This document shows, piece after piece, positions 16,552 to 61,879 of a stretch of DNA of 64,000 nt. Below the pieces are notes generated by a model, which saw nothing but the letters and a program-made list of their open reading frames with translations, was not told the DNA's origin and did not search any database. Origin of the DNA: Candidatus Falkowbacteria bacterium (GTDB lineage Bacteria; Patescibacteriota; Patescibacteriia; JAACEG01); assembly GCA_018651725.1 (NCBI GenBank), contig JABIDK010000001.1:748-64747 (forward strand). Reading direction: 5' to 3'. Numbering within the stretch: the stretch's first letter is position 1; each line of letters begins with the position of its first letter. Position numbers and translations under genes: made by a program.

Positions 16552-16561
16552 ATACCCACTG

Positions 16562-16678
16562 TCATCCTGAGCGAGCGGAGCGAGTCGAAGGATCTAGAAG
16601 ATTTACTTACTAATTTAAGTTAAACCGTAAGCCAAATAGATTCTTCGACTCCACTTCGTTTCGCTCAGAATGACAAAA
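16562..16678. repeat. Long imperfect inverted repeat (arms about 33 nt, spacer about 45 nt), GC-rich in an AT-rich intergenic region
   Basis: The arm gtcatcctgagcgagcggagcgagtcgaagga pairs with cttcgactccacttcgtttcgctcagaatgac. Confidence 0.5.
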
Positions 16679-37996: not shown

Positions 37997-40405
37997 CTAT
38001 TTTACCTTCTTTTCTTTCTTTAGTATCTCTATAGTTGTTTTAATAACCGTGTCCGGATTAAGGGAAATACTATCAATTCCGCACTCTACTAAAAATGTGG
38101 CAAAGTCAGGGAAGTCACTTGGGGCTTGACCGCAGATACCGATTTTCTTTTTTTGTTTTTTGGCTTTTTCTATGGCTAATTTAACTAAAGTTTTAACAGC
38201 TAGATTTCTTTCGTCGTAAACATGACTTACTAACGCGCTGTCTCGATCAACTCCCAGAGTTAGTTGGGTTAAGTCATTGGAACCGATTGAAAAGCCGTCA
38301 AAAATTTTAGCGAACTCTTCCAGTAAAATTACATTGGATGGAATTTCAGTCATTACATAAATCTCTAAATCATTTTTACCTTGGCGAAGCCCTTGCTTTT
38401 GCATTATTTGAATTACTTTTTGCCCCTCATCTATTGTTCTACAGAACGGAATCATTATTTTAAGATTTTTTAACCCAAGTTTTTGACGAACTTTTTGAAT
38501 CGCTTTACACTCCATCTCAAAAGCCGGACGATACTCTTTGCTGTAATAGCGTGAAGCTCCGCGCCAGCCAATCATTGGGTTGTCTTCGGTTGGTTCGAAT
38601 AAGTGTCCGCCGATTAAGTTGGCATATTCATTGGATTTAAAGTCGGACAATCTAACGATTACATCTTTTGGATAAAAAGCAGCTGTAATTATCGCTACAC
38701 CTTCGGCTAGCTTATCGATAAAAAATTGTTTTTTATCTTTGTAGCCTTTGGTTATCTCTTCTATTTTTTCAATATCGTCTTTTGTTAAGCGTTTTGCTTT
38801 TTTAAGTTTATCAAAATTTATCAAAGCCAAAGGATGAATTTTAATGTAACTGTTTATAATAAACTCTTCTCTTGCTAGACCCACTCCATCGTTTGGAATA
38901 AAGGATTCGGCAAAAGCGTTTTCCGGTGAACCAATGTTCATCATTATTTTTGTCTTTGGGCGTTTTAGATTTTTTATGTTATGACGAATAATTTTATGTT
39001 TTAAAAGTCCTTCATAAACATACCCCTTTTCACCCTCAGCGCAAGATACGGTTATTGGTTTTTTGTTTTTTAACTTTTTTGTAGCATCTCCGGACCCAAC
39101 GATACACGGCACCCCAAGCTCACGCGATACAATTGCAGCGTGACAGGTGCGACCGCCTTTGTCTGTAACGATTGCTCCGGCGATTTTCATTATCGGCACC
39201 CAGTCCGGATCGGTCATGTCGGTTACTAAAATCTGTCCTTTTTTGAATTTTTTAATGTCAGCTATATCTTTGATGACATTAATTTGTCCGGCTCCAATTT
39301 TAGATCCAACTGAAGCACCAACAACCATTGGTTTTTTGCGTTCCAGTAATTTATATTCTTCCAAAACATTTGGATTTTTCTGTGAGTGAACTGTTTCCGG
39401 TCGCGCTTGAACAATATATAGCTTATTGTTTCGCCCGTCTTTTGCCCACTCCATATCCATTGGTTTATTATAGTGTTTTTCAATGGTCATTGCCCAGTTA
39501 GCCAAAGTTAAAATCTCTAAATCGCTAATGCTGAATTTTTCACGATCGCGTTCAGATACTTTAATATCTTTAACCGGGTTTTTAGAGTTGTGAGTATAAA
39601 CCATTTTAACTGATTTAGTACCGATTTTTCTTGATAAAATTGCCGGAAAATTCTTTTTTAAAAGTGGTTTAAAAACATAAAATTCATCCGGTGTTACTTT
39701 TCCCTGAACAATATTTTCACCCAAACCGTAAATAGAGTTAATTAAAACCGTATCTTTAAAGCCTGATTCAGTGTCGATTGAGAACATTACTCCGGACGAA
39801 GCTAAGTCTGAGCGAACCATTTTTTGGACACCAATTGAAAGTCCGATTTCAAAGTGGTCGAATTTCTTAGTTTCCCGATAAACAATTGCTCGATTAGTAA
39901 AAAGTGAAGCAAAGCATTTCTTACAGGCTCTTAGTAAGTCTTTCTCTCCGCGAATATTTAAAAAAGTTTCCTGCTGTCCGGCAAAAGAAGCATCCGGCAA
40001 ATCTTCAGCTGTAGCCGAGGACCTAACTGCCACATCTGTTCCGCGTCCGCTTTCTTTATTTAAAGCGTTTAATTTTTTATAGGCTTTTATAATTTCTTTT
40101 TCTAGCTCTTCTGGCAAGGATGATCCCAAAATAAGTTTCCGAACTTTATTTCCGCGATAGTAAAGATTGTCGATGTTAGTTGCATCAAGTCCGCGTAAAA
40201 TAACTTTAATTTGATCTTTAATTCCGGCTTGCTCTAAAAAATAATGATAAGCTTGCGCAGTAACAGCAAACCCGTTAGGTACATTAACGCCTTTCTTAGT
40301 AAGTTGACTATACATCTCTCCCAAGGAGGCATTCTTCCCGCCTACTTTAGGAACATCTTTAATTCTAAGATCCTTAAACCAAAGTACAAAAGGTTGTTTT
40401 TTCAT
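37997..40405 (-). CDS. ppsA: Phosphoenolpyruvate synthase (pyruvate, water dikinase)
   Basis: Phospho-His domain GGRTCHAAIVSRELGVPCIVG, ATP-grasp N-terminus, C-terminal PEP-utilising TIM barrel; 802 aa. Confidence 0.9.
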   Translation of the reverse strand: MKKQPFVLWFKDLRIKDVPKVGGKNASLGEMYSQLTKKGVNVPNGFAVTAQAYHYFLEQAGIKDQIKVILRGLDATNIDNLYYRGNKVRKLILGSSLPEELEKEIIKAYKKLNALNKESGRGTDVAVRSSATAEDLPDASFAGQQETFLNIRGEKDLLRACKKCFASLFTNRAIVYRETKKFDHFEIGLSIGVQKMVRSDLASSGVMFSIDTESGFKDTVLINSIYGLGENIVQGKVTPDEFYVFKPLLKKNFPAILSRKIGTKSVKMVYTHNSKNPVKDIKVSERDREKFSISDLEILTLANWAMTIEKHYNKPMDMEWAKDGRNNKLYIVQARPETVHSQKNPNVLEEYKLLERKKPMVVGASVGSKIGAGQINVIKDIADIKKFKKGQILVTDMTDPDWVPIMKIAGAIVTDKGGRTCHAAIVSRELGVPCIVGSGDATKKLKNKKPITVSCAEGEKGYVYEGLLKHKIIRHNIKNLKRPKTKIMMNIGSPENAFAESFIPNDGVGLAREEFIINSYIKIHPLALINFDKLKKAKRLTKDDIEKIEEITKGYKDKKQFFIDKLAEGVAIITAAFYPKDVIVRLSDFKSNEYANLIGGHLFEPTEDNPMIGWRGASRYYSKEYRPAFEMECKAIQKVRQKLGLKNLKIMIPFCRTIDEGQKVIQIMQKQGLRQGKNDLEIYVMTEIPSNVILLEEFAKIFDGFSIGSNDLTQLTLGVDRDSALVSHVYDERNLAVKTLVKLAIEKAKKQKKKIGICGQAPSDFPDFATFLVECGIDSISLNPDTVIKTTIEILKKEKKVK

Positions 40406-44196: not shown

Positions 44197-44234
44197 TTAT
44201 CAGCCAGGGGGCTGATCAGCCCCCTGGCTGATAA
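44197..44234. repeat. Perfect 38-bp GC-rich palindrome in the divergent intergenic region
   Basis: ttatcagccagggggctgatcagccccctggctgataa. Confidence 0.7.
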
Positions 44235-44426
44235 GATTAAGTTTAAGTAATTTTAAGGTTATAATAGCACAGAGCTTTGTTTAAAAGCAAATATTGACAT
44301 TTAGACTCTAAAATAGTATTCTTCTAGTATTAGTAAGATTGTTGATAAGACGAAAGATGGATATTTTGCTTTGATTTTTAATTTATTTTTATTAGCATTT
44401 CAATAAAAAAAATAACCATTAAGATA

Positions 44427-46494: not shown

Positions 46495-46510
46495 TGTTTC
46501 ACGTGAAACA
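46495..46510. repeat. parS-type palindrome, copy 1
   Basis: tgtttcacgtgaaaca matches the chromosomal parS consensus TGTTNCACGTGAAACA. Confidence 0.75.
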
Positions 46511-46534
46511 TAGTAAGATTAAAAGATTAACAAA

Positions 46535-46550
46535 TGTTTCACGTGAAACA
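46535..46550. repeat. parS-type palindrome, copy 2
   Basis: aatgtttcacgtgaaacatt. Confidence 0.75.
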
Positions 46551-46620
46551 TTGTGGAATTGATAAAAATTTGTTATTATATGCTTAAAAGCTTATTAAAC
46601 ATAGCTTTAAAGGGATTTTT

Positions 46621-47016
46621 ATGAACTTAAAACTTAAAAAAACAATTATTGAACTTATATTTTGGTCTCATTTAGTGATAGTTTTTATTTGGTTTGGGTT
46701 ATTTTTTGTGCCAAATTCTCTATGGAGCAATAAAACAGCTTTTCATTTTTGGTTTATCGTTGATATTACAACTATCCAATTTTTTTGGGGGCTTATATTG
46801 TATAAATATACAAAAAAAGTAAATATAATTTGTCCGATGACTACTTTAATGCAAAAATTAAGAGGTTTTCCCCTAAAAACAAAGGAGAATTTCGCTCATT
46901 CTTTTATAGTGGAGTGCTTAGGAAGGTTAAATGTTAAGGTTAGCTATAAAACTATTAATTTACTTTTATTAATTACTGTTGTTTTGGTATCGATTCAGTA
47001 TTATTTGTTAGACTAA
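46621..47016 (+). CDS. Hypothetical small membrane protein
   Basis: Three hydrophobic helices; the ORF lies between parS copies. Confidence 0.45.
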   Translation: MNLKLKKTIIELIFWSHLVIVFIWFGLFFVPNSLWSNKTAFHFWFIVDITTIQFFWGLILYKYTKKVNIICPMTTLMQKLRGFPLKTKENFAHSFIVECLGRLNVKVSYKTINLLLLITVVLVSIQYYLLD

Positions 47017-47019
47017 CAA

Positions 47020-47035
47020 TGTTTCACGTGAAACA
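47020..47035. repeat. parS-type palindrome, copy 3
   Basis: aatgtttcacgtgaaacatt. Confidence 0.75.
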
Positions 47036-47127
47036 TTAATCAAAAAAATATAACAAGGTGAATTCCGAAGGAAGAGAAAGTGGTCTGGGCCAAAACACGA
47101 CAACATAACGATGTGATGTAATGATAA

Positions 47128-47143
47128 TGTTTCACGTGAAACA
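47128..47143. repeat. parS-type palindrome, copy 4
   Basis: aatgtttcacgtgaaacatt. Confidence 0.75.
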
Positions 47144-47233
47144 TTGTATTAAAAAAACCGCACAAATATGCGGTTTTTTGATTTTGTTTAGGCTAGAGGT
47201 CGTATGTTTTCTTACTTTTTTATTTTTTTGATA

Positions 47234-48733
47234 CTATTTAACCCAGTGTTTTTCTTTTATTTCTTTGTCTTCTTCCTCTTTTTTTTCTTTTATTTTGCCT
47301 TTAGCTTGTTTTCTTAGATCCTTTAAGTCCATTTTATCAAGTTCTTTGGCTCGTTTTTTCAAGTATGTTTTAGTATTATTTTTGGGATTTTCTATTACTT
47401 CGGCTAATAAACAATCTAAAATTGCTCCAAATTTGGGACTAGGAGACATTTTCAGGTCTTTTATCAATGTTTCACCACTCACCTTAAGACTTTTTACGGA
47501 AATTGGATCTTTGCTGACTTTATCGATTAAATACTCTAAATGGCGTAATTTGTAGGGTTTTGCCTTTGGGACACCAGACCCAAGCCTGTCTGAAATGCGT
47601 AAATCCATTAAATCTTTCATATTCTCTTTACCTACTTTTTTTACCAGTCTCCTGATTCCGGCATCTGAAACATCACCAACATTATAGTAAAACATGTGGT
47701 TTTTAATCAAATGAGTTACTTTTTCAACGTCTTGGCTGGAAAAAGCCATTCTTTTCATTATTTTTTTAGCTATTTTAGCGCCAACGATGTCGTGGTTGTA
47801 GAAAGTAGCATCAATTCCTTGTCCGCGTTTGGTTTGCGGTTTGGCAATATCATGAAATAAAGCTGCCAATCTAACGCGGTAGTCCTTGCTTGGACAGTGT
47901 TTTAGTGACATTATTAAATGTTTAAAGATAGTATAGGTATGATGCTTGTTTTGATTCATTCCTACACCAAGCTCTAATTCTGGGATAATATATTGCAAAA
48001 GCTTAGCGTTTCGTAGCAAAAGTATACCTTCTTCAGGAGTTTCTGACTGTAAAATCTTAATAAACTCATCGTGAATTCGTTCGTTGGCTATTTTTTTGAT
48101 TAATTTAGCGTTATTTCTGATAGCTTTTAAGGTTTTCGGCTCTATTTTCCAACCTAAAACAACCGCAAATCTAATCGCACGCATCATTCTAAGCGCATCT
48201 TCATTAAAACGCTCGTTCGGATCACCAACCGCCCTAATTAACTTGTTTTTAAGGTCTTTTTGACCGTTAAACAGATCTGTAACTTGATAGTTGTTATCTG
48301 TTGTTTGGTTTTTTGTGTTTTTTGATTGCGCCCGATGTTTCACGTGAAACATTGCCAGTGCATTTACTGTAAAATCTCGTCTTTCTAGGTCTTCTTTTAG
48401 GGTTTTAGCAAATTTTACGCTATCTGGTCGTCTTTTGTCGCTATATTTTGACTCGATTCTGTAGGTTGTTATCTCTACTATATCTATTGTTTCGTCATTA
48501 TTGTTTTTGATTTTTATGCCTACAGTCCCAAATTTATTCTCATAAACAGTTTCAGGGAATATTTTTTGTATTTCTTTTGGTCTGGCGTTTGTAGTGATAT
48601 CCCAATCCTTTGGTTTATTATTTATCAATAAATCACGAACGCAACCACCAACAAGATAAGCCTCAAAATTGGCCTTTTCTAGTGTTTTTAGTGTATTTTG
48701 TACGTATTTTGGGATTTTCATAGTCATAGTCAT
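47234..48733 (-). CDS. cca: CCA-adding tRNA nucleotidyltransferase with a C-terminal HD domain
   Basis: GGCVRDLLINNKPKDWDITT and RRDFTVNALA head motifs, HD region ALFHDIAKP. Contains an in-frame parS-derived insertion (MFHVKH...). Confidence 0.85.
   Translation of the reverse strand: MTMTMKIPKYVQNTLKTLEKANFEAYLVGGCVRDLLINNKPKDWDITTNARPKEIQKIFPETVYENKFGTVGIKIKNNNDETIDIVEITTYRIESKYSDKRRPDSVKFAKTLKEDLERRDFTVNALAMFHVKHRAQSKNTKNQTTDNNYQVTDLFNGQKDLKNKLIRAVGDPNERFNEDALRMMRAIRFAVVLGWKIEPKTLKAIRNNAKLIKKIANERIHDEFIKILQSETPEEGILLLRNAKLLQYIIPELELGVGMNQNKHHTYTIFKHLIMSLKHCPSKDYRVRLAALFHDIAKPQTKRGQGIDATFYNHDIVGAKIAKKIMKRMAFSSQDVEKVTHLIKNHMFYYNVGDVSDAGIRRLVKKVGKENMKDLMDLRISDRLGSGVPKAKPYKLRHLEYLIDKVSKDPISVKSLKVSGETLIKDLKMSPSPKFGAILDCLLAEVIENPKNNTKTYLKKRAKELDKMDLKDLRKQAKGKIKEKKEEEDKEIKEKHWVK
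48336..48351. repeat. parS-type palindrome, copy 5, in frame inside the cca coding sequence
   Basis: gatgtttcacgtgaaacatt, translated as MFHVKH within Cca. Confidence 0.75.
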
Positions 48734-48777
48734 TTAAGCATATAATCATTTAAACATTTAAGCAAGTTGTTTTGCAA

Positions 48778-48793
48778 TGTTTCACGTGAAACA
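48778..48793. repeat. parS-type palindrome, copy 6
   Basis: aatgtttcacgtgaaacatt. Confidence 0.75.
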
Positions 48794-48860
48794 TTATAAA
48801 ATACTTTTAGGAAGCGGGGAAACTTAGTGTTTCCCCGAGATTGGAAGCATAAAAGTACGA

Positions 48861-49094
48861 TTATGCTGATAAATCAGTTGCACGAATATTTTTTACAACA
48901 CTTTTTGTAAATATTACTGCCTTTTCCGGTGAGTCGAATGCTGGGTTTGTGGAAAGTAACGTTGTATGGAAAAAACCATCATGGTATATATTAACTGCAC
49001 CTGCCCATTTACCGGTTTTTTTATCCTGACCATACGGTTCGCAACGAATATCGTTGTCTTTATTCTGGATAACTAATGCTGTATATCTTGTCAT
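48861..49094 (-). CDS. Small hypothetical protein (77 aa)
   Basis: ORF only. Confidence 0.4.
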   Translation of the reverse strand: MTRYTALVIQNKDNDIRCEPYGQDKKTGKWAGAVNIYHDGFFHTTLLSTNPAFDSPEKAVIFTKSVVKNIRATDLSA

Positions 49095-49185
49095 GACACC
49101 CTCCTTTTGCTGATTTAACTTAGTTTAGCCTCCTAAAAGTATTTTATTTTCTAAAGAACAAGATTTTAGATCGTTTAATTGTTAA

Positions 49186-49201
49186 TGTTTCACGTGAAAC
49201 A
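49186..49201. repeat. parS-type palindrome, copy 7
   Basis: aatgtttcacgtgaaacatt. Confidence 0.75.
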
Positions 49202-49243
49202 TTCTTAGCGTTTTATTCTCATGTTTTTTACTTTTTTGAGGAT

Positions 49244-49259
49244 TGTTTCACGTGAAACA
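49244..49259. repeat. parS-type palindrome, copy 8
   Basis: attgtttcacgtgaaacaat. Confidence 0.75.
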
Positions 49260-49274
49260 ATTTTGTGTTTTGTG

Positions 49275-50240
49275 TTATATTTTGATGTTTTTGGCTAACT
49301 GAATGTATTTTTGAGCTGTTTGAGGTAGTTTGTGACCGAGTATTTGCTGGATTTCGCTTACTTTAGTGCCTTTTTTTGCTAAATTAACTGCGAATGTATG
49401 TCGTAGCGAATGACAAGTAGCTTGTTTTTTGATTTTTGTTTTTTTAAAGACTTGTAGAAAGGCTTTTTGAATGGCTCTTTCGGTTAATTTTTGATTTTTT
49501 TGTCCTTTAAATAAATAATTATCTGATAATGTTTCACCCGCCACCAGAACGGTGTCGGGCAGGCGTGAAACATTATCGTCATATGATTGTTCTTGCCCGC
49601 CTGCAACGCTGTAGCAACTGCGGGCAGGTGTTCCAATATATTTTTTTAGCTTTTCAACAATATTTTTTGGTAAACCTAATGTTCTTTTTTGGTGTTTTCC
49701 GTTATTAGTTATTTTAACTTGATTTTTAAAAAAGTCCAGTGTTTTTACCTTAATATTAACTATTTCTGATATTCTAAGGCCTGTTAAGTACATTAATTCA
49801 AAAATTAGCCGATGTTTTGGGTTTTGGGTTGATTTTAGTATTTTGTTTACCTCTTTATCTGTTAAAATAACTGGTTGTTTTTTATCAAGCTTGGCCCGAC
49901 CGATTTTTCCATGCGGAGCAAAAAATTTACGATGTAAAATGCTCTCAAAATAGAACTTTAAAGCACTATGGGTGGTATTTAAGGTAGAACGTGACTTTTT
50001 TTCTTTAACTAGTTTCTCTAAGTAGCTAATTATATCTTTACTTTGAATATTTTTAGGGCTTTTACTCGCAAAACTAACTATTTCTGAGATATAATAAAGG
50101 TAGCTTTTAATGGTTTTACTATCAAAATTCAACTCAACCATTGTTTTCTTTAGCTTATGAAGTGGATTTTTACTGGGGTATTTGTAGGGAATCATGTTAA
50201 TATTTAAACAAGCGAAACGACGATGTTTCACGTGAAACAT
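49275..50240 (-). CDS. Tyrosine recombinase / integrase (XerC/XerD-like); start codon uncertain
   Basis: C-terminal catalytic region HSLRHTFAVNLAKKGTKVSEIQQILGH...YIQ. The annotated N-terminus MFHVKH is encoded by a parS copy, so the real start is probably an internal Met. The ORF contains in-frame GC-rich palindromic insertions. Confidence 0.75.
   Translation of the reverse strand: MFHVKHRRFACLNINMIPYKYPSKNPLHKLKKTMVELNFDSKTIKSYLYYISEIVSFASKSPKNIQSKDIISYLEKLVKEKKSRSTLNTTHSALKFYFESILHRKFFAPHGKIGRAKLDKKQPVILTDKEVNKILKSTQNPKHRLIFELMYLTGLRISEIVNIKVKTLDFFKNQVKITNNGKHQKRTLGLPKNIVEKLKKYIGTPARSCYSVAGGQEQSYDDNVSRLPDTVLVAGETLSDNYLFKGQKNQKLTERAIQKAFLQVFKKTKIKKQATCHSLRHTFAVNLAKKGTKVSEIQQILGHKLPQTAQKYIQLAKNIKI
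49530..49572. repeat. Split parS: the two half-sites are separated by a 27-bp GC-rich insert, inside the integrase ORF
   Basis: tgtttcac | ccgccaccagaacggtgtcgggcaggc | gtgaaaca. Confidence 0.65.
49596..49630. repeat. GC-rich 35-bp element, copy A, in frame in the integrase ORF
   Basis: cccgcctgcaacgctgtagcaactgcgggcaggtg. A near-identical copy lies at 60860-60893. Confidence 0.65.
50224..50239. repeat. parS-type palindrome, copy 9
   Basis: gatgtttcacgtgaaacatt. Confidence 0.75.
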
Positions 50241-50303
50241 TTGTTATCACGTACATTTTTTGGTTTAGGTTAAGGCCCGTGTGTTTTCTTATCTTTTTAT
50301 TAA

Positions 50304-50319
50304 TGTTTCACGTGAAACA
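50304..50319. repeat. parS-type palindrome, copy 10
   Basis: aatgtttcacgtgaaacatt. Confidence 0.75.
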
Positions 50320-59834: not shown

Positions 59835-60650
59835 TTACATGTATTTTTGGAGTATTTCTCTTAAAGCGTCCGGGAGGTTGTCTTGTTCTATAAGTTCGTC
59901 AAGTGGTAACATTTCACCTCTCCAATGACAACGAACTTGGTTGAGCTCGCCCCTTTTAGACGCATTGGACAAAAGTTGATCTAATGTTTCAATGTCATCG
60001 GCAAAGACATCAGCCCCCCTTGAGCATAGACATGATTCGTTGATATTTGGTTTTTCAACTTTTTCCAATATTTCTCTTAGTTGGGGAGAGGGGTTAAATT
60101 CCTTGAGAAATTTTTTATACTCTTTGTTGTTTAAAGTAGCCATTTCTTCAAGAAAATCATAAGACAGTTTTGATAGTTCAGCTATTAATAAATATTCTTC
60201 TCTATCGTTAAGGGCTAGGCGAGCGGTTTGACAGGTAAGGCACATACAGTCCCTGTTTTCGATGGTTGGTTTGCCTGTAATCTTTACGCCTGATTTTTCT
60301 ATGGCACATGCAAGGGTGTTTACAGCTTCCGGGCCGTAGCGATCTGCAGGACAAATATTTTTTGCCAGAACGATTGCTTCGTTCTCTGAGCTAACACCAT
60401 GTTTTTTAGCCCAGGCGATAATAGCTTTGTTGCAGCCTGTGTTCGTGCCAAACGCCTCAAATAATTTAGAGCCTTCTTTCATTGTAAGCTCATTTATCAG
60501 CATAAATTCCTCGATAACAAAGTCCTCGGCCTTTTGGGTGTAGCTCCCGTTACTCTGTTGATGATCTTTGATATTATTCGCTGCAAAACATAGCAAATTA
60601 ATATCAGTGGGGTTGTCTTTTATGAAAGCAATAACTGCGTCAGGTGTCAT
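59835..60650 (-). CDS. Hypothetical protein (271 aa) with CxC / CxxC pairs
   Basis: CMCLTC ... CLCSRG; no family recognised. Confidence 0.5.
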   Translation of the reverse strand: MTPDAVIAFIKDNPTDINLLCFAANNIKDHQQSNGSYTQKAEDFVIEEFMLINELTMKEGSKLFEAFGTNTGCNKAIIAWAKKHGVSSENEAIVLAKNICPADRYGPEAVNTLACAIEKSGVKITGKPTIENRDCMCLTCQTARLALNDREEYLLIAELSKLSYDFLEEMATLNNKEYKKFLKEFNPSPQLREILEKVEKPNINESCLCSRGADVFADDIETLDQLLSNASKRGELNQVRCHWRGEMLPLDELIEQDNLPDALREILQKYM

Positions 60651-60859
60651 TTTTCCTCTCCTTGGTTTTAGTTTTTTGTTGAAAGAAACACTTAAAATTA
60701 GTTGTACCTCCTTGTGTTGGTGATATTTATGGTTTTGAAAGAGCGGGATAGTTTGATTGATTAAGTTACTTTATAGCAATAAATAGGCTAAATGTCAAGC
60801 CTAACCAAACAAAAAAAGCAGTTTTGGGCTGCCTTTTTTTGTTTTTATTTTTATTTTGT

Positions 60860-60893
60860 CCCGCCTGCAACGTTGTAGCACTGCGGGCAGGTG
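60860..60893. repeat. GC-rich 34-bp element, copy B
   Basis: cccgcctgcaacgttgtagcactgcgggcaggtg, followed by tgaaa. Compare 49596-49630. Confidence 0.65.
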
Positions 60894-60942: not shown

Positions 60943-61018
60943 TTTGTTATTAGACTTGTTACATAATTAACTATTACTGCAATCCTCACATAGTTAATTG
61001 TACAACAAGTCTAATATA
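60943..61018. repeat. Short form of the hairpin element seen at 165-340, with compensatory arm changes
   Basis: ttattagacttgttacataattaactattactgcaatcctcacatagttaattgtacaacaagtctaata. The arms still pair with each other, but they differ from copy 1 by paired substitutions (aagc/gctt becomes taac/gtta). Confidence 0.6.
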
Positions 61019-61315: not shown

Positions 61316-61879
61316 ATGGCTTATTTTATGGAAAAACAAATCATACATAAAGGCGAGAAAATAGATTTTTGTTTTAAGAAGAGGAAGGGGACGAAAAATT
61401 TGAGGATAGCTGTTTATCGGAGTGGCGAGGTTGTGGTTAGTGTTCCTTGGTGGGCAAGCTTGAAAAGAGCAGAGAATTTTGTGGTGGAAAAAGCGGATTG
61501 GATATTAGGGAAAATAAAAAAGAGAAAGGGGAAAGCAGGATTGCTATTTAAAAGAGATAGACAAGAATATTTAAGGCTTAAAAAATCTGCTTTTGAGTTT
61601 ATTGAAGAGAGCTTGGAGAAGTATAATAAAATTTATAACTTAGAGTATAAAAGAATTTCTATTCGAGATCAAAGAACGCGCTGGGGAAGTTGTTCGTCCA
61701 AGAAGAATTTGAACTTTAACTACAAAATTATTTTATTGCCTAAAAGATATGCTGATTATATAATCGTTCACGAGTTGTGTCATTTACAAGAATTTAACCA
61801 CTCCAGAGATTTTTGGTCGTTGGTTAGTGTGGCTATCCCGGAGTATAAAAAAATAGTTAAGGAGCTGAGAGAAATTTAA
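61316..61879 (+). CDS. YgjP/DUF45-family zinc metallohydrolase (M48/SprT-like, HExxH)
   Basis: RWGSCS...YIIVHELCHLQEFNHSRDFW. Confidence 0.75.
   Translation: MAYFMEKQIIHKGEKIDFCFKKRKGTKNLRIAVYRSGEVVVSVPWWASLKRAENFVVEKADWILGKIKKRKGKAGLLFKRDRQEYLRLKKSAFEFIEESLEKYNKIYNLEYKRISIRDQRTRWGSCSSKKNLNFNYKIILLPKRYADYIIVHELCHLQEFNHSRDFWSLVSVAIPEYKKIVKELREI

What the first reader, a model, noticed from the sequence alone, without database searches (positions are those of the whole stretch)
49520..49640. Integrase ORF carries in-frame GC-rich palindromic insertions, including a parS split by a 27-bp insert
Inside the tyrosine-recombinase gene, a parS is split in two: tgtttcac + ccgccaccagaacggtgtcgggcaggc + gtgaaaca. 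About 25 bp further along sits a 35-bp GC-rich element, cccgcctgcaacgctgtagcaactgcgggcaggtg, which recurs almost identically in intergenic DNA at 60860-60893, there followed by gtgaaa. Both are translated in frame (…NVSRLPDTVLVAGETL… and …TPARSCYSVAGGQEQ…) and are about 60% GC in a genome of about 33% GC. The annotated N-terminus MFHVKH is itself a parS. This resembles small palindromic mobile elements that insert in frame, such as the Rickettsia palindromic elements (RPEs) or Correia-like elements. The element copy at 60860 and the split-parS insert share cgggcagg[c/t]gtgaaa, which suggests this GC-rich element specifically targets parS.
Basis: seen in the sequence. Interest (0 to 1): 0.65.

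Follow-up and report, generated by a model that had tools for sequence, protein, structure and literature searches.

The report
GC-rich hairpin repeats inside integrase gene
Three copies of a tiny (27-33 bp) GC-rich hairpin repeat sit in this AT-rich Falkowbacteria genome: two are read through in frame inside a recombinase gene, one of them splitting a parS site at its centre, and near-identical copies occur in frame in unrelated genes of bacteria from several phyla.

Summary
In the Xer-like tyrosine recombinase gene (49275-50195, minus strand), a 27-bp GC-rich insert (A, 49537-49563) splits a parS. A 33-bp element (B, 49596-49628) lies 32 bp away, and a 32-bp near-copy (C, 60860-60891) is intergenic. 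Removing A restores AATGTTTCACGTGAAACATT and the peptide NVSRETL. The closest homolog (77% identity) has VSRET uninterrupted, and 17 of 19 aligned homologs lack the whole segment. AlphaFold2 places the inserted residues 189-224 in a disordered loop of an otherwise well-folded enzyme.

All three copies share the ends CCCGCC...CGGGCAGG. A scan of 185,579 species genomes found the B/C core, often as an identical 32-mer, in Patescibacteria, Verrucomicrobiota, Lentisphaerae and Bdellovibrionales, and once on a viral contig. It lies in frame in L25, an RNase J-like protein, a UvrD-type helicase, EamA and YgjP genes. All six B/C-type coding copies are 33 nt; 11 of 12 other B/C-type copies are 32 nt, one 30.

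Seven of 27 copies sit at the centre of longer palindromes, against 0.6% of controls. No transposase is nearby and no known RNA family matches.

This is a REP/RPE-like selfish hairpin repeat. Specific targeting of parS is not supported; a preference for palindrome centres is. MFHVKH is a longest-ORF artefact.

The parts
49275..50195 (-). Xer-like tyrosine recombinase gene (306 aa, start MIPYKY) that hosts elements A and B
   Evidence: Pfam Phage_integrase E 1e-33 plus N-terminal SAM-like domain. 100% identical to NCBI P0001 from Ca. Falkowbacteria. Catalytic R142, H262-x-x-R265, H288 and Y297 are conserved. The gene region is 100% identical in 5 other independent assemblies.
49530..49572 (.). 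parS split by element A: TGTTTCA | 27 bp | CGTGAAACA
   Evidence: Excising the 27 bp restores AATGTTTCACGTGAAACATT and the reading N-V-S-R-E-T-L. The closest homolog P0002 has ...YDDVSRETF... uninterrupted. The flanks form a 12-bp perfect stem around the insert.
49537..49563 (+). Element A: 27-bp short variant CCCGCCACCAGAACGGTGTCGGGCAGG, 74% GC, encoding (R)LPDTVLVAG on the minus strand
   Evidence: Model R1 gives 32 bits, E 4e-8. It has the same ends as B and C. Its inner stem CACC/GGTG is compensatory to CTGC/GCAG in the 27-nt copies L070 and L079. 27 bp is 9 codons.
49596..49628 (+). Element B: 33-bp core CCCGCCTGCAACGCTGTAGCAACTGCGGGCAGG, encoding PARSCYSVAGG (residues 190-200)
   Evidence: Absent from P0002 and from all other homologs. 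Lies within the pLDDT<50 loop 189-224.
60860..60891 (+). Element C: 32-bp intergenic copy CCCGCCTGCAACGTTGTAGCACTGCGGGCAGG
   Evidence: 56 bits. It lies between a terminator-like hairpin (60808-60836) and an AT-rich inverted repeat, in the 665-bp gap between the genes at 59835-60650 (-) and 61316-61879 (+). Identical in the NCBI record (L095).
46495..50319 (.). Context: array of 10 perfect parS sites (TGTTTCACGTGAAACA) plus the split one
   Evidence: (0.02 expected by chance). One further site is in frame inside the CCA-adding enzyme gene (48336-48351...AMFHVKH...).

Best explanation
A, B and C are copies of a family of very small (27-33 bp), GC-rich, imperfectly palindromic repeats with conserved ends: 5'-CCCG(CC)-[variable inner stem-loop]-(G)CGGG-CAGG-3', usually followed by YGT. 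The family behaves as non-autonomous selfish DNA of the REP/RPE kind.

Copies are scattered among housekeeping genes in several bacterial phyla. They land in intergenic DNA, inside coding sequences and, disproportionately, at the centre or loop of pre-existing palindromes.

In this Falkowbacteria lineage, an ancestor shared with P0002 already carried a parS in frame in a surface loop of the Xer-like recombinase. A short-variant copy (A) later landed at the centre of that parS. This destroyed one of eleven clustered ParB sites and added nine codons. A B/C-type copy (B) landed 32 bp away and added eleven codons.

Coding copies survive only when they keep the frame, carry no stop codon and lie in a permissive loop. 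They are simply translated, and the recombinase stays intact.

Shown: the insertion status, family membership, in-frame tolerance, enrichment at palindrome centres, and absence of a linked transposase.

Inferred: mobility itself, mobilisation in trans by an unidentified enzyme that recognises the hairpin (probably as single-stranded or cruciform DNA), and loss of ParB binding at the split site.
For: - **Insertion.** Seventeen of 19 aligned homologs have about 6 residues where this protein has about 38. P0002 (77% identity) has VSRET intact and lacks both A and B. Excising the 27 bp restores a perfect 20-bp parS.
- **Family in the window.** CGGGCAGG occurs only 3 times in the window, and the covariance model finds exactly the 3 copies.
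- **Family elsewhere.** The genome scan returned the same core in low-GC genomes of other lineages. An identical 32-mer is present in a Parcubacteria genome (L077), three times in one Verrucomicrobiota MAG (L013, L074, L089), and in L020, L048 (Bdellovibrionales) and L014 (Lentisphaerae). It also occurs on a viral contig, L092.
- **In-frame copies in real genes.** These are ribosomal L25/Ctc, a beta-CASP RNase J-like protein, a UvrD/PD-(D/E)XK helicase, EamA, YgjP and a 771-aa membrane protein. They use four different frame and orientation combinations, so no peptide is conserved.
- **Frame selection.** All six coding B/C-type copies are 33 nt, whereas 11 of 12 other B/C-type copies are 32 nt and one is 30 nt. 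In L081 the extra base is at a different position and removes an in-frame TAG.
- **Permissive loop.** pLDDT is below 50 for residues 189-224 only, and the flanking regions score 85-95. The catalytic residues are kept.
- **Palindrome centres.** Seven of 27 copies have perfect flanking stems of at least 7 bp, against 0.57% of 10,000 control positions. There are also nested copies (L029) and repeated composite hairpins (L070/L079, L017/L086).
- **Hairpin constraint.** The inner stems differ by compensatory changes: TGC/GCA, TGCCA/TGGCA, CTGC/GCAG and CACC/GGTG.
- **Not an assembly artefact.** The integrase region is 100% identical in 5 other assemblies made with different assemblers.
- **Non-autonomous.** Among 116 ORFs within 3 kb of 24 copies, no family occurs more than twice, and all recurrent families are housekeeping. 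A tblastn search with Y1-transposase queries found nothing.
Against: - There is no DNA-level filled/empty pair. P0002's contig could not be fetched, so the empty site rests on the protein sequence VSRET.
- Local copy number is low: 3 copies in about 75 kb examined.
- No consistent target-site duplication was seen: AAGCAGA in L092, TGTTC offset in B, and none in A.
- No mobilising enzyme was identified.
- The collection scan pattern imposed the ends, an internal AACG and the trailing YGT. Conservation of those features among the hits is therefore partly circular, and the short-variant hits are less secure than the B/C-type ones.
- Identity of a 32-mer across phyla is not what ordinary decaying selfish repeats show. 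It could point to a conserved host function or a templated origin instead.
Confidence: 0.7

Rival explanations
1. The repeats are recombination sites for a tyrosine recombinase, possibly the host gene's own product. As duplex DNA the core reads as two imperfect inverted 12-bp arms around an 8-9-bp spacer, like lox, FRT or dif. Alternatively it folds like an attC.
For: The architecture is CCCGCCTGCAAC / GCTGTAGC(A) / ACTGCGGGCAGG, with 8 of 12 arm positions symmetric (direct reading). Two direct copies lie inside a recombinase gene whose relatives NCBI names 'site-specific tyrosine recombinase/integron integrase'.
Against: In 24 other loci no recombinase is recurrent nearby. Copies lie in frame in unrelated housekeeping genes in both orientations. 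The variable inner stems change in a compensatory way, which fits a hairpin rather than a duplex site. No attC R'/R'' consensus (GTTRRRY/RYYYAAC) is present. Recombination between A and B would delete 59 bp and shift the frame, yet 6 assemblies show only the full arrangement.
Confidence: 0.07
2. The hairpin is a host-beneficial RNA or DNA signal, such as an mRNA stabiliser, a terminator-like element or a protein binding site. Cross-phylum identity would then reflect function, and the coding copies would be incidental.
For: Identical 32-mers occur in 4 phyla. All three window copies and 4 of the 6 coding copies elsewhere have the same orientation relative to transcription. C lies in a likely 3' UTR just upstream of a terminator-like hairpin. 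REPs are proposed to act as RNA elements (PMC3733652).
Against: There is no match to any of 4227 Rfam families, even at E up to 10. The fold z-scores of B and C are weak, -1.4 to -2.0. Copies occur in both orientations inside genes and with no consistent gene neighbourhood. Density is low.
Confidence: 0.13
3. The extra residues are an adaptive, lineage-specific loop expansion of the recombinase, and the similarity to C is coincidental or a local duplication.
For: The same loop carries unrelated insertions in P0002 and P0083, so it is an evolvable site.
Against: The same nucleotides occur intergenically, and in other phyla in different reading frames that give unrelated peptides. The segment is predicted to be disordered. 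GC is 69-74% in a 34% GC genome.
Confidence: 0.03
4. The inserts are assembly or sequencing artefacts.
For: All B/C-type carriers found are metagenome-assembled genomes. There were no hits in cultured-organism plasmid or phage collections.
Against: The sequence is identical in 6 assemblies from different samples and assemblers. Reading frames and flanking genes continue through every copy. Carrier genomes span 33-61% GC.
Confidence: 0.02

Closest known systems
REP elements, including intragenic REPs (GTAG- and CGTC-tagged families; Di Nocera et al. 2013, PMC3733652)
   Same: Both are 20-40-bp GC-rich imperfect palindromes with a short conserved unpaired tag next to the stem. Both are dispersed among housekeeping genes, have subfamilies with compensatory stem changes, and include some families shared by distant taxa. 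Copies inside ORFs are translated, and in that paper many lie in DNA replication or repair genes, including in the verrucomicrobium Opitutus terrae.
   Different: The tag here is CAGG(YGT), not GTAG or CGTC. The CGTC-family stem and loop rules (8-9-bp stems starting with A/T pairs, 4-5-nt loops, CCA tail) are not met. No RAYT was found. Local copy number is low. Two of the three local copies are intragenic. An identical 32-mer occurs in four phyla.
Rickettsia palindromic elements (RPE; Ogata et al. 2000/2002, own knowledge; RPE-4 and RPE-6 equated with CGTC REPs in PMC3733652)
   Same: Both are palindromic selfish DNA inserted in frame in protein-coding genes of a reduced, AT-rich genome, tolerated in surface loops and translated.
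   Different: RPE-1 is about 100-150 bp and confined to Rickettsia. This element is 27-33 bp, GC-rich against an AT-rich background, and found across phyla.
Mobile GC clusters of yeast mitochondrial DNA, and byp elements of Magnusiomyces (own knowledge)
   Same: Both are 30-50-bp GC-rich palindromes scattered in a very AT-rich genome, sometimes inside coding sequences.
   Different: Those are organellar, GC clusters have a defined target duplication, and byps are skipped by the ribosome. Here the copies are open in frame and nothing suggests bypassing.
Insertion into palindrome loops: IS1397/ISKpn1 into REP/PU loops (own knowledge); IS1111 and ISPpu9 into REPs (PMC5896051, PMC12288879 abstracts)
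   Same: The target is the loop or centre of a pre-existing palindrome, as seen for A in parS and for the copies nested in other hairpins.
   Different: Those are full insertion sequences that encode their own transposase. Here the inserted unit is itself only a 27-33-bp hairpin.
Bacterial MITEs (Correia, QMITE1/2; PMC5896051, PMC11602168)
   Same: Both are non-autonomous and may overlap ORFs.
   Different: MITEs are 50-800 bp with terminal inverted repeats and target duplications, and are reported as largely genus-specific. This element is shorter, shows no consistent duplication and crosses phyla.

Membership tests
REP / REPIN-RAYT system | 20-40-bp GC-rich imperfect palindrome, dispersed in many copies | tested here: inconclusive
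   Size and palindromy are met. Dispersal across genomes is met. Only 3 copies were found in about 75 kb of this genome, and the whole-genome count is unavailable.
REP / REPIN-RAYT system | Conserved GTAG or CGTC tag at one end of the stem | tested here: not met
   The conserved unpaired end is CAGG plus YGT. GTAG occurs only inside the loop of B/C-type copies. YGTC follows in 6 of 26 aligned copies. The CGTC-family stem and loop rules are not met.
REP / REPIN-RAYT system | Cognate RAYT (Y1 HUH transposase) gene, typically flanked by REPs | tested here: inconclusive
   There was no tblastn hit to RAYT or IS200 TnpA queries (written from memory) in the window or in 104 loci. No such family is recurrent near copies. 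Whole genomes were not searchable.
Rickettsia palindromic elements (RPE) | In-frame insertion in ORFs, translated, in permissive protein regions | tested here: met
   Translation is inferred from open frames, not measured.
Rickettsia palindromic elements (RPE) | Sequence homology to RPE consensus and restriction to Rickettsia | tested here: not met
   The carriers are Patescibacteria, Verrucomicrobiota, Lentisphaerae and Bdellovibrionales. Length is 27-33 bp, against about 100-150 bp for RPE-1.
MITE (IS-derived) | Terminal inverted repeats plus a target-site duplication of fixed length, with a related autonomous IS | tested here: not met
   Flanks show no consistent duplication. No transposase is associated. 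The whole element is a single hairpin.
Integron attC or lox/dif-like recombination site | Conserved R''/R' boxes (RYYYAAC / GTTRRRY), or symmetric recombinase-binding arms, linked to a recombinase | tested here: not met
   No GTTRRRY/RYYYAAC pair is present in the core (reading). Arms are only 8 of 12 symmetric. No recombinase is recurrent near other copies.
parS (ParB binding site) | 16-bp palindrome TGTTNCACGTGAAACA (own knowledge: Bacillus-type consensus), clustered near the origin | tested here: met
   There are ten perfect copies at 46495-50319. The split copy becomes perfect after excising the 27 bp. The cumulative GC-skew minimum lies at about 38-40 kb in the window. ParB binding was not tested.

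The most novel reading that the evidence does not exclude
The 27-33-nt hairpin is an actively spreading, inter-phylum mobile unit in its own right, far below MITE size. It would home into the tips of DNA hairpins or cruciforms (parS, other REP-like hairpins, even copies of itself) through a still unknown hairpin-recognising enzyme or a templated copying mechanism. New copies would be made from a conserved master, which would explain identical 32-mers in Patescibacteria, Verrucomicrobiota, Lentisphaerae, Bdellovibrionales and a viral contig.
Probability: 0.2. Interest if true: 0.8.

Novelty: new variant of a known kind. Interest (0 to 1): 0.5.

Why it matters
This extends selfish palindromic DNA translated inside essential genes, known from Rickettsia RPEs and intragenic REPs, to the Candidate Phyla Radiation, with a family that I did not find described.

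Two aspects could be pursued:
- A 32-mer that is identical across at least four phyla is unusual for small repeats, which are typically genus-specific. It implies either recent inter-phylum spread or a strong sequence-specific constraint.
- The enrichment at palindrome centres, including a functional centromere-like parS site, gives a concrete handle on the insertion mechanism: recognition of a hairpin or cruciform target.

Practically, these repeats add spurious low-complexity loops to protein models and split motifs such as parS. Annotation and motif scans of CPR genomes should take them into account.

Tried and rejected
- **P0002 DNA for an empty-site comparison.** The sample file was too large, and the single metagenome scan did not contain that contig. 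All other assemblies of this population carry both inserts, so no empty-site strain was found.
- **More of the source genome.** Only about 11 kb of extra sequence was obtained, and it held no new copies.
- **Rfam.** Nothing at gathering thresholds in the window or in 16 loci, and nothing at E up to 10 on the two regions.
- **Annotated plasmid and phage collections.** No match.
- **Full-text literature search for the sequence.** Only chance primer matches. Keyword searches found the REP and MITE literature but not this family.
- **Linked transposase.** None found by Pfam on neighbouring ORFs or by tblastn with Y1-transposase queries.
- **Target-site duplications.** Inspected by eye. They are inconsistent in length and offset, so I do not claim any.
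- **C as a decayed parS insertion.** Considered and rejected: the flank match is only 4/8 and 6/8.
- **Other readings considered and rejected.** attC or lox-like sites, translational bypass, ribozyme or intron, CRISPR repeat, adapter or vector contamination.

Full report
**Origin of the window.** The integrase protein is 100% identical to an NCBI protein from Candidatus Falkowbacteria. A look-up places the window at about 80,295-144,294 of JABHZI010000001.1 in GCA_018656705.1. Window GC is 34%. There are no tRNAs and no Rfam families at gathering score in the window.

**The observation.** At 49530-49572 the sequence reads TGTTTCAC + 27 bp + GTGAAACA. The insert is equally well written as CCCGCCACCAGAACGGTGTCGGGCAGG (A, 49537-49563) between TGTTTCA and CGTGAAACA. 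Thirty-two bp further on lies CCCGCCTGCAACGCTGTAGCAACTGCGGGCAGG (B, 49596-49628). CCCGCCTGCAACGTTGTAGCACTGCGGGCAGG (C, 60860-60891) is intergenic.
- The octamer CGGGCAGG occurs only at these three places in 64 kb.
- A covariance model of the family, run with filters off, finds exactly these three copies.
- The elements are 69-74% GC.
- Ten perfect parS sites lie between 46495 and 50319, where 0.02 are expected by chance.

**The host gene.** It is a Xer-like tyrosine recombinase: Pfam Phage_integrase with E 1e-33, plus an N-terminal SAM-like domain. The longest ORF starts MFHVKH, which is the translation of a parS. The NCBI protein and all homologs start 15 codons downstream at MIPYKY. The gene is therefore 49275-50195, and that parS (50224-50239) is upstream DNA, not an N-terminus.

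**The segments are insertions.**
- In an alignment of 19 homologs, 17 have about 6 residues between ...KKYI and DNYLF..., where this protein has about 38.
- The closest relative, P0002 (77% identity), reads ...KQLYDDVSRETFTKKQNDYLF. VSRET is parS read in frame and uninterrupted, and neither A nor B is present.
- Here the same place reads ...SYDDNVSR[LPDTVLVAG]ETLSDNYLF, with PARSCYSVAGG a few residues upstream.
- Removing the 27 bp restores AATGTTTCACGTGAAACATT and N-V-S-R-E-T-L.
- The likely history: a parS-bearing loop was present in the common ancestor with P0002, and A and B were added later in this lineage.
- P0002's DNA could not be fetched, so the empty site is known only at the protein level.
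- AlphaFold2 gives mean pLDDT 81. The only internal low-confidence stretch (pLDDT below 50) is residues 189-224, which is exactly B, the spacer, and the split parS with A. The flanking regions score 85-95. The catalytic R, H-x-x-R, H and Y are conserved.
- The integrase region is 100% identical in five other assemblies from different samples and assemblers. That rules out an assembly artefact, but it also means no empty-site strain was found.

**The family beyond this genome.** One scan of 185,579 species-representative genomes used a pattern that fits A, B and C (CCCGCC N3-5 AACG N4-12 CGGGCAGGYGT). It returned 84 stretches. Most lie in genomes of about 58-76% GC with unrelated interiors, and I treat those as chance matches.

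Among the remaining loci (33-61% GC), the B/C core reappears almost unchanged:
- Patescibacteria: L009, L068, L021, L077, L045.
- One Verrucomicrobiota MAG, three times: L013, L074, L089.
- Two other Verrucomicrobia: L020, L081.
- Lentisphaerae (L014) and Bdellovibrionales (L048).
- A 33% GC contig labelled Gammaproteobacteria (L049) and an unclassified MAG (L029).

Eight copies share the identical 32-mer CCCGCCTGCAACGCTGTAGCACTGCGGGCAGG. These are seven genomic loci from five genomes in four phyla, plus one viral contig, L092.

Shorter variants have the same ends but different inner stems. They occur in Bacteroidota (L070, L079, L028), Clostridia (L015, L080), Saccharibacteria (L036), Omnitrophota (L052) and another Patescibacteria MAG (L017, L086). 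A resembles the 27-nt variants: CCCGCC[CACC]AGAAC[GGTG]TCGGGCAGG against CCCGCC[CTGC]CAAAC[GCAG]TCGGGCAGG. The difference is a compensatory change in the inner stem.

One caveat applies. The scan pattern imposed the ends, the AACG and the YGT, so their conservation among the hits is partly circular. The source genome itself is not in that collection.

**In-frame copies are common.** In six other loci the core lies inside long ORFs. Five of them are recognisable conserved genes:
- Ribosomal protein L25/Ctc, in the inter-domain linker.
- A beta-CASP RNase J-like metallo-beta-lactamase.
- A UvrD-type helicase with a PD-(D/E)XK nuclease domain.
- An EamA transporter.
- A YgjP-like peptidase.

The sixth is a 771-aa membrane protein. 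The encoded peptides differ with frame and orientation: LPAVATALQAGG, PARSCYSVAGG, PACNVVATAGR and PPATLVALRAG. Nothing is conserved at the protein level.

All six B/C-type coding copies are 33 nt. Of the 12 other B/C-type copies, 11 are 32 nt and one is 30 nt. In L081 the extra base sits at a different position (GCTGGTAGC), and it also removes the TAG that would otherwise be in frame. This is the signature of selection on reading frame acting on a sequence that lands indiscriminately.

**Where it lands.** I measured the longest perfect stem formed by the DNA flanking each copy. Seven of 27 copies have at least 7 bp, against 0.57% of 10,000 control positions:
- A in parS: 12 bp.
- L077: 13 bp.
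- L070 and L079: 14 and 9 bp.
- L068, L017 and L086: 7 bp each.

Some of these are related pairs, so about five are independent. In L068, L009, L017 and L086 the outer arms belong to another widespread hairpin repeat (GTCATTCC...GGAATC). A pair of that repeat is also present in this window at 16556-16676. L029 shows a copy nested in the loop of an inverted copy of the same family. L079 carries further composite copies. B, C and about two-thirds of all copies are not in palindromes. So the family prefers palindrome centres rather than parS specifically. C's flanks match parS at only 4/8 and 6/8 positions.

**What it is not.**
- No Rfam family matches, even at E up to 10.
- There is no match in the plasmid or phage collections.
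- The neighbours are housekeeping genes. Among 116 ORFs within 3 kb of 24 copies, no family occurs more than twice.
- No Y1 transposase was detected.
- As isolated hairpins, B and C fold only modestly better than shuffled sequence (z -1.4 to -2.0). The strong z-score for A (-4.8 to -6.6) comes largely from the parS arms.

**Comparison with known systems.** REPs are 20-40-bp tagged palindromes. Some REP families are shared by distant taxa, and intragenic, translated copies are documented, many in replication and repair genes, with the most in Opitutus terrae and Rickettsia conorii (RPE-4 and RPE-6) (PMC3733652). The present family works like these but fails their defining tags: it has CAGG/YGT rather than GTAG/CGTC, and it breaks the CGTC stem and loop rules. 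No RAYT was found. MITEs are larger and reported as largely genus-specific (PMC11602168). Palindrome-loop targeting is known for whole insertion sequences, for example IS1111 into a REP (PMC5896051), but to my knowledge not for a unit this small.

**Verdict.** The interpretation 'small palindromic element inserted in frame' is right. 'Targets parS' should be replaced by 'tends to sit at palindrome centres'. It is a new variant of the REP/RPE kind. The unexplained feature is sequence identity across phyla. The mechanism of spread remains inferred.

Noticed in passing
window 46495-50319: Very dense parS array: 10 perfect TGTTTCACGTGAAACA sites plus the split one within 3.8 kb, usually extended to AATGTTTCACGTGAAACATT. 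Two are inside coding sequences and read in frame: the CCA-adding enzyme at 48336-48351 (...AMFHVKH...) and the recombinase. The parS-bearing loop of the recombinase is itself an insertion shared only with P0002.
   Followed up: partly
window 16556-16676: Inverted pair, about 45 bp apart, of a different GC-rich repeat (GTCATCCTGAGCGAGCGGAGCGAGTCGAAGGATC / its reverse complement) in an intergenic gap. It resembles the outer hairpin arms (GTCATTCC...GGAATC) that host the core in L009, L017, L068 and L086. This is a REPIN-like arrangement.
   Followed up: no
window 44198-44235: Perfect 38-bp GC-rich palindrome TTATCAGCCAGGGGGCTGATCAGCCCCCTGGCTGATAA in AT-rich intergenic DNA, upstream of the LysM/M23 peptidase gene.
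   Followed up: no
window 60808-60836 and 60948-61017: Next to element C lie two other structures. One is a terminator-like hairpin with A/T runs on both sides (AAAAAAAGCAGTTTTGGGCTGCCTTTTTTT). The other is a roughly 27-bp AT-rich imperfect inverted repeat (TATTAGACTTGTTACATAATTAACTA...TAGTTAATTGTACAACAAGTCTAATA). Both sit in an unusually long 665-bp intergenic gap.
   Followed up: no
window 61316-61879 and L021 475-1365: Element C lies about 420 bp upstream of a YgjP-like peptidase gene. In an unrelated Patescibacteria genome (L021) the same core is inserted inside the YgjP-like gene, alongside a second GC-rich repeat (VIPSVVEGS). This is probably coincidence.
   Followed up: partly
window ~38000-40000; L093 19661-20818: The cumulative GC skew reaches its minimum near 38-40 kb, 6-10 kb from the parS array. 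dnaN lies about 9 kb beyond the left end of the window, and a 16S rRNA gene lies about 1 kb beyond the right end, at the end of the contig.
   Followed up: no
proteins P0009, P0027 (homologs): Two more distant Xer-like homologs end in ...KKMFHVKH and ...KKIFHPKHR. This means a parS overlaps the 3' end of the gene in other CPR lineages, so this recombinase gene seems habitually embedded in parS clusters.
   Followed up: no
P0002 contig: In the closest relative's contig, an IS1595-family transposase gene and a bAvd/23S_rRNA_IVP protein (accessory protein of diversity-generating retroelements) flank the recombinase gene. Neither is present at the corresponding place in this window.
   Followed up: no
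L092 2964-3030: On the viral contig, a 7-bp direct repeat AAGCAGA flanks the identical 32-mer on both sides. This is the only clean candidate for a target-site duplication, though the same word occurs a third time just upstream.
   Followed up: partly
L013 1420-1475, L074, L089: The three copies in one Verrucomicrobiota MAG share extended flanks, ATCCG[core]CGTAATCCGCGG. In that genome the repeated unit is therefore longer than the 32-mer.
   Followed up: no
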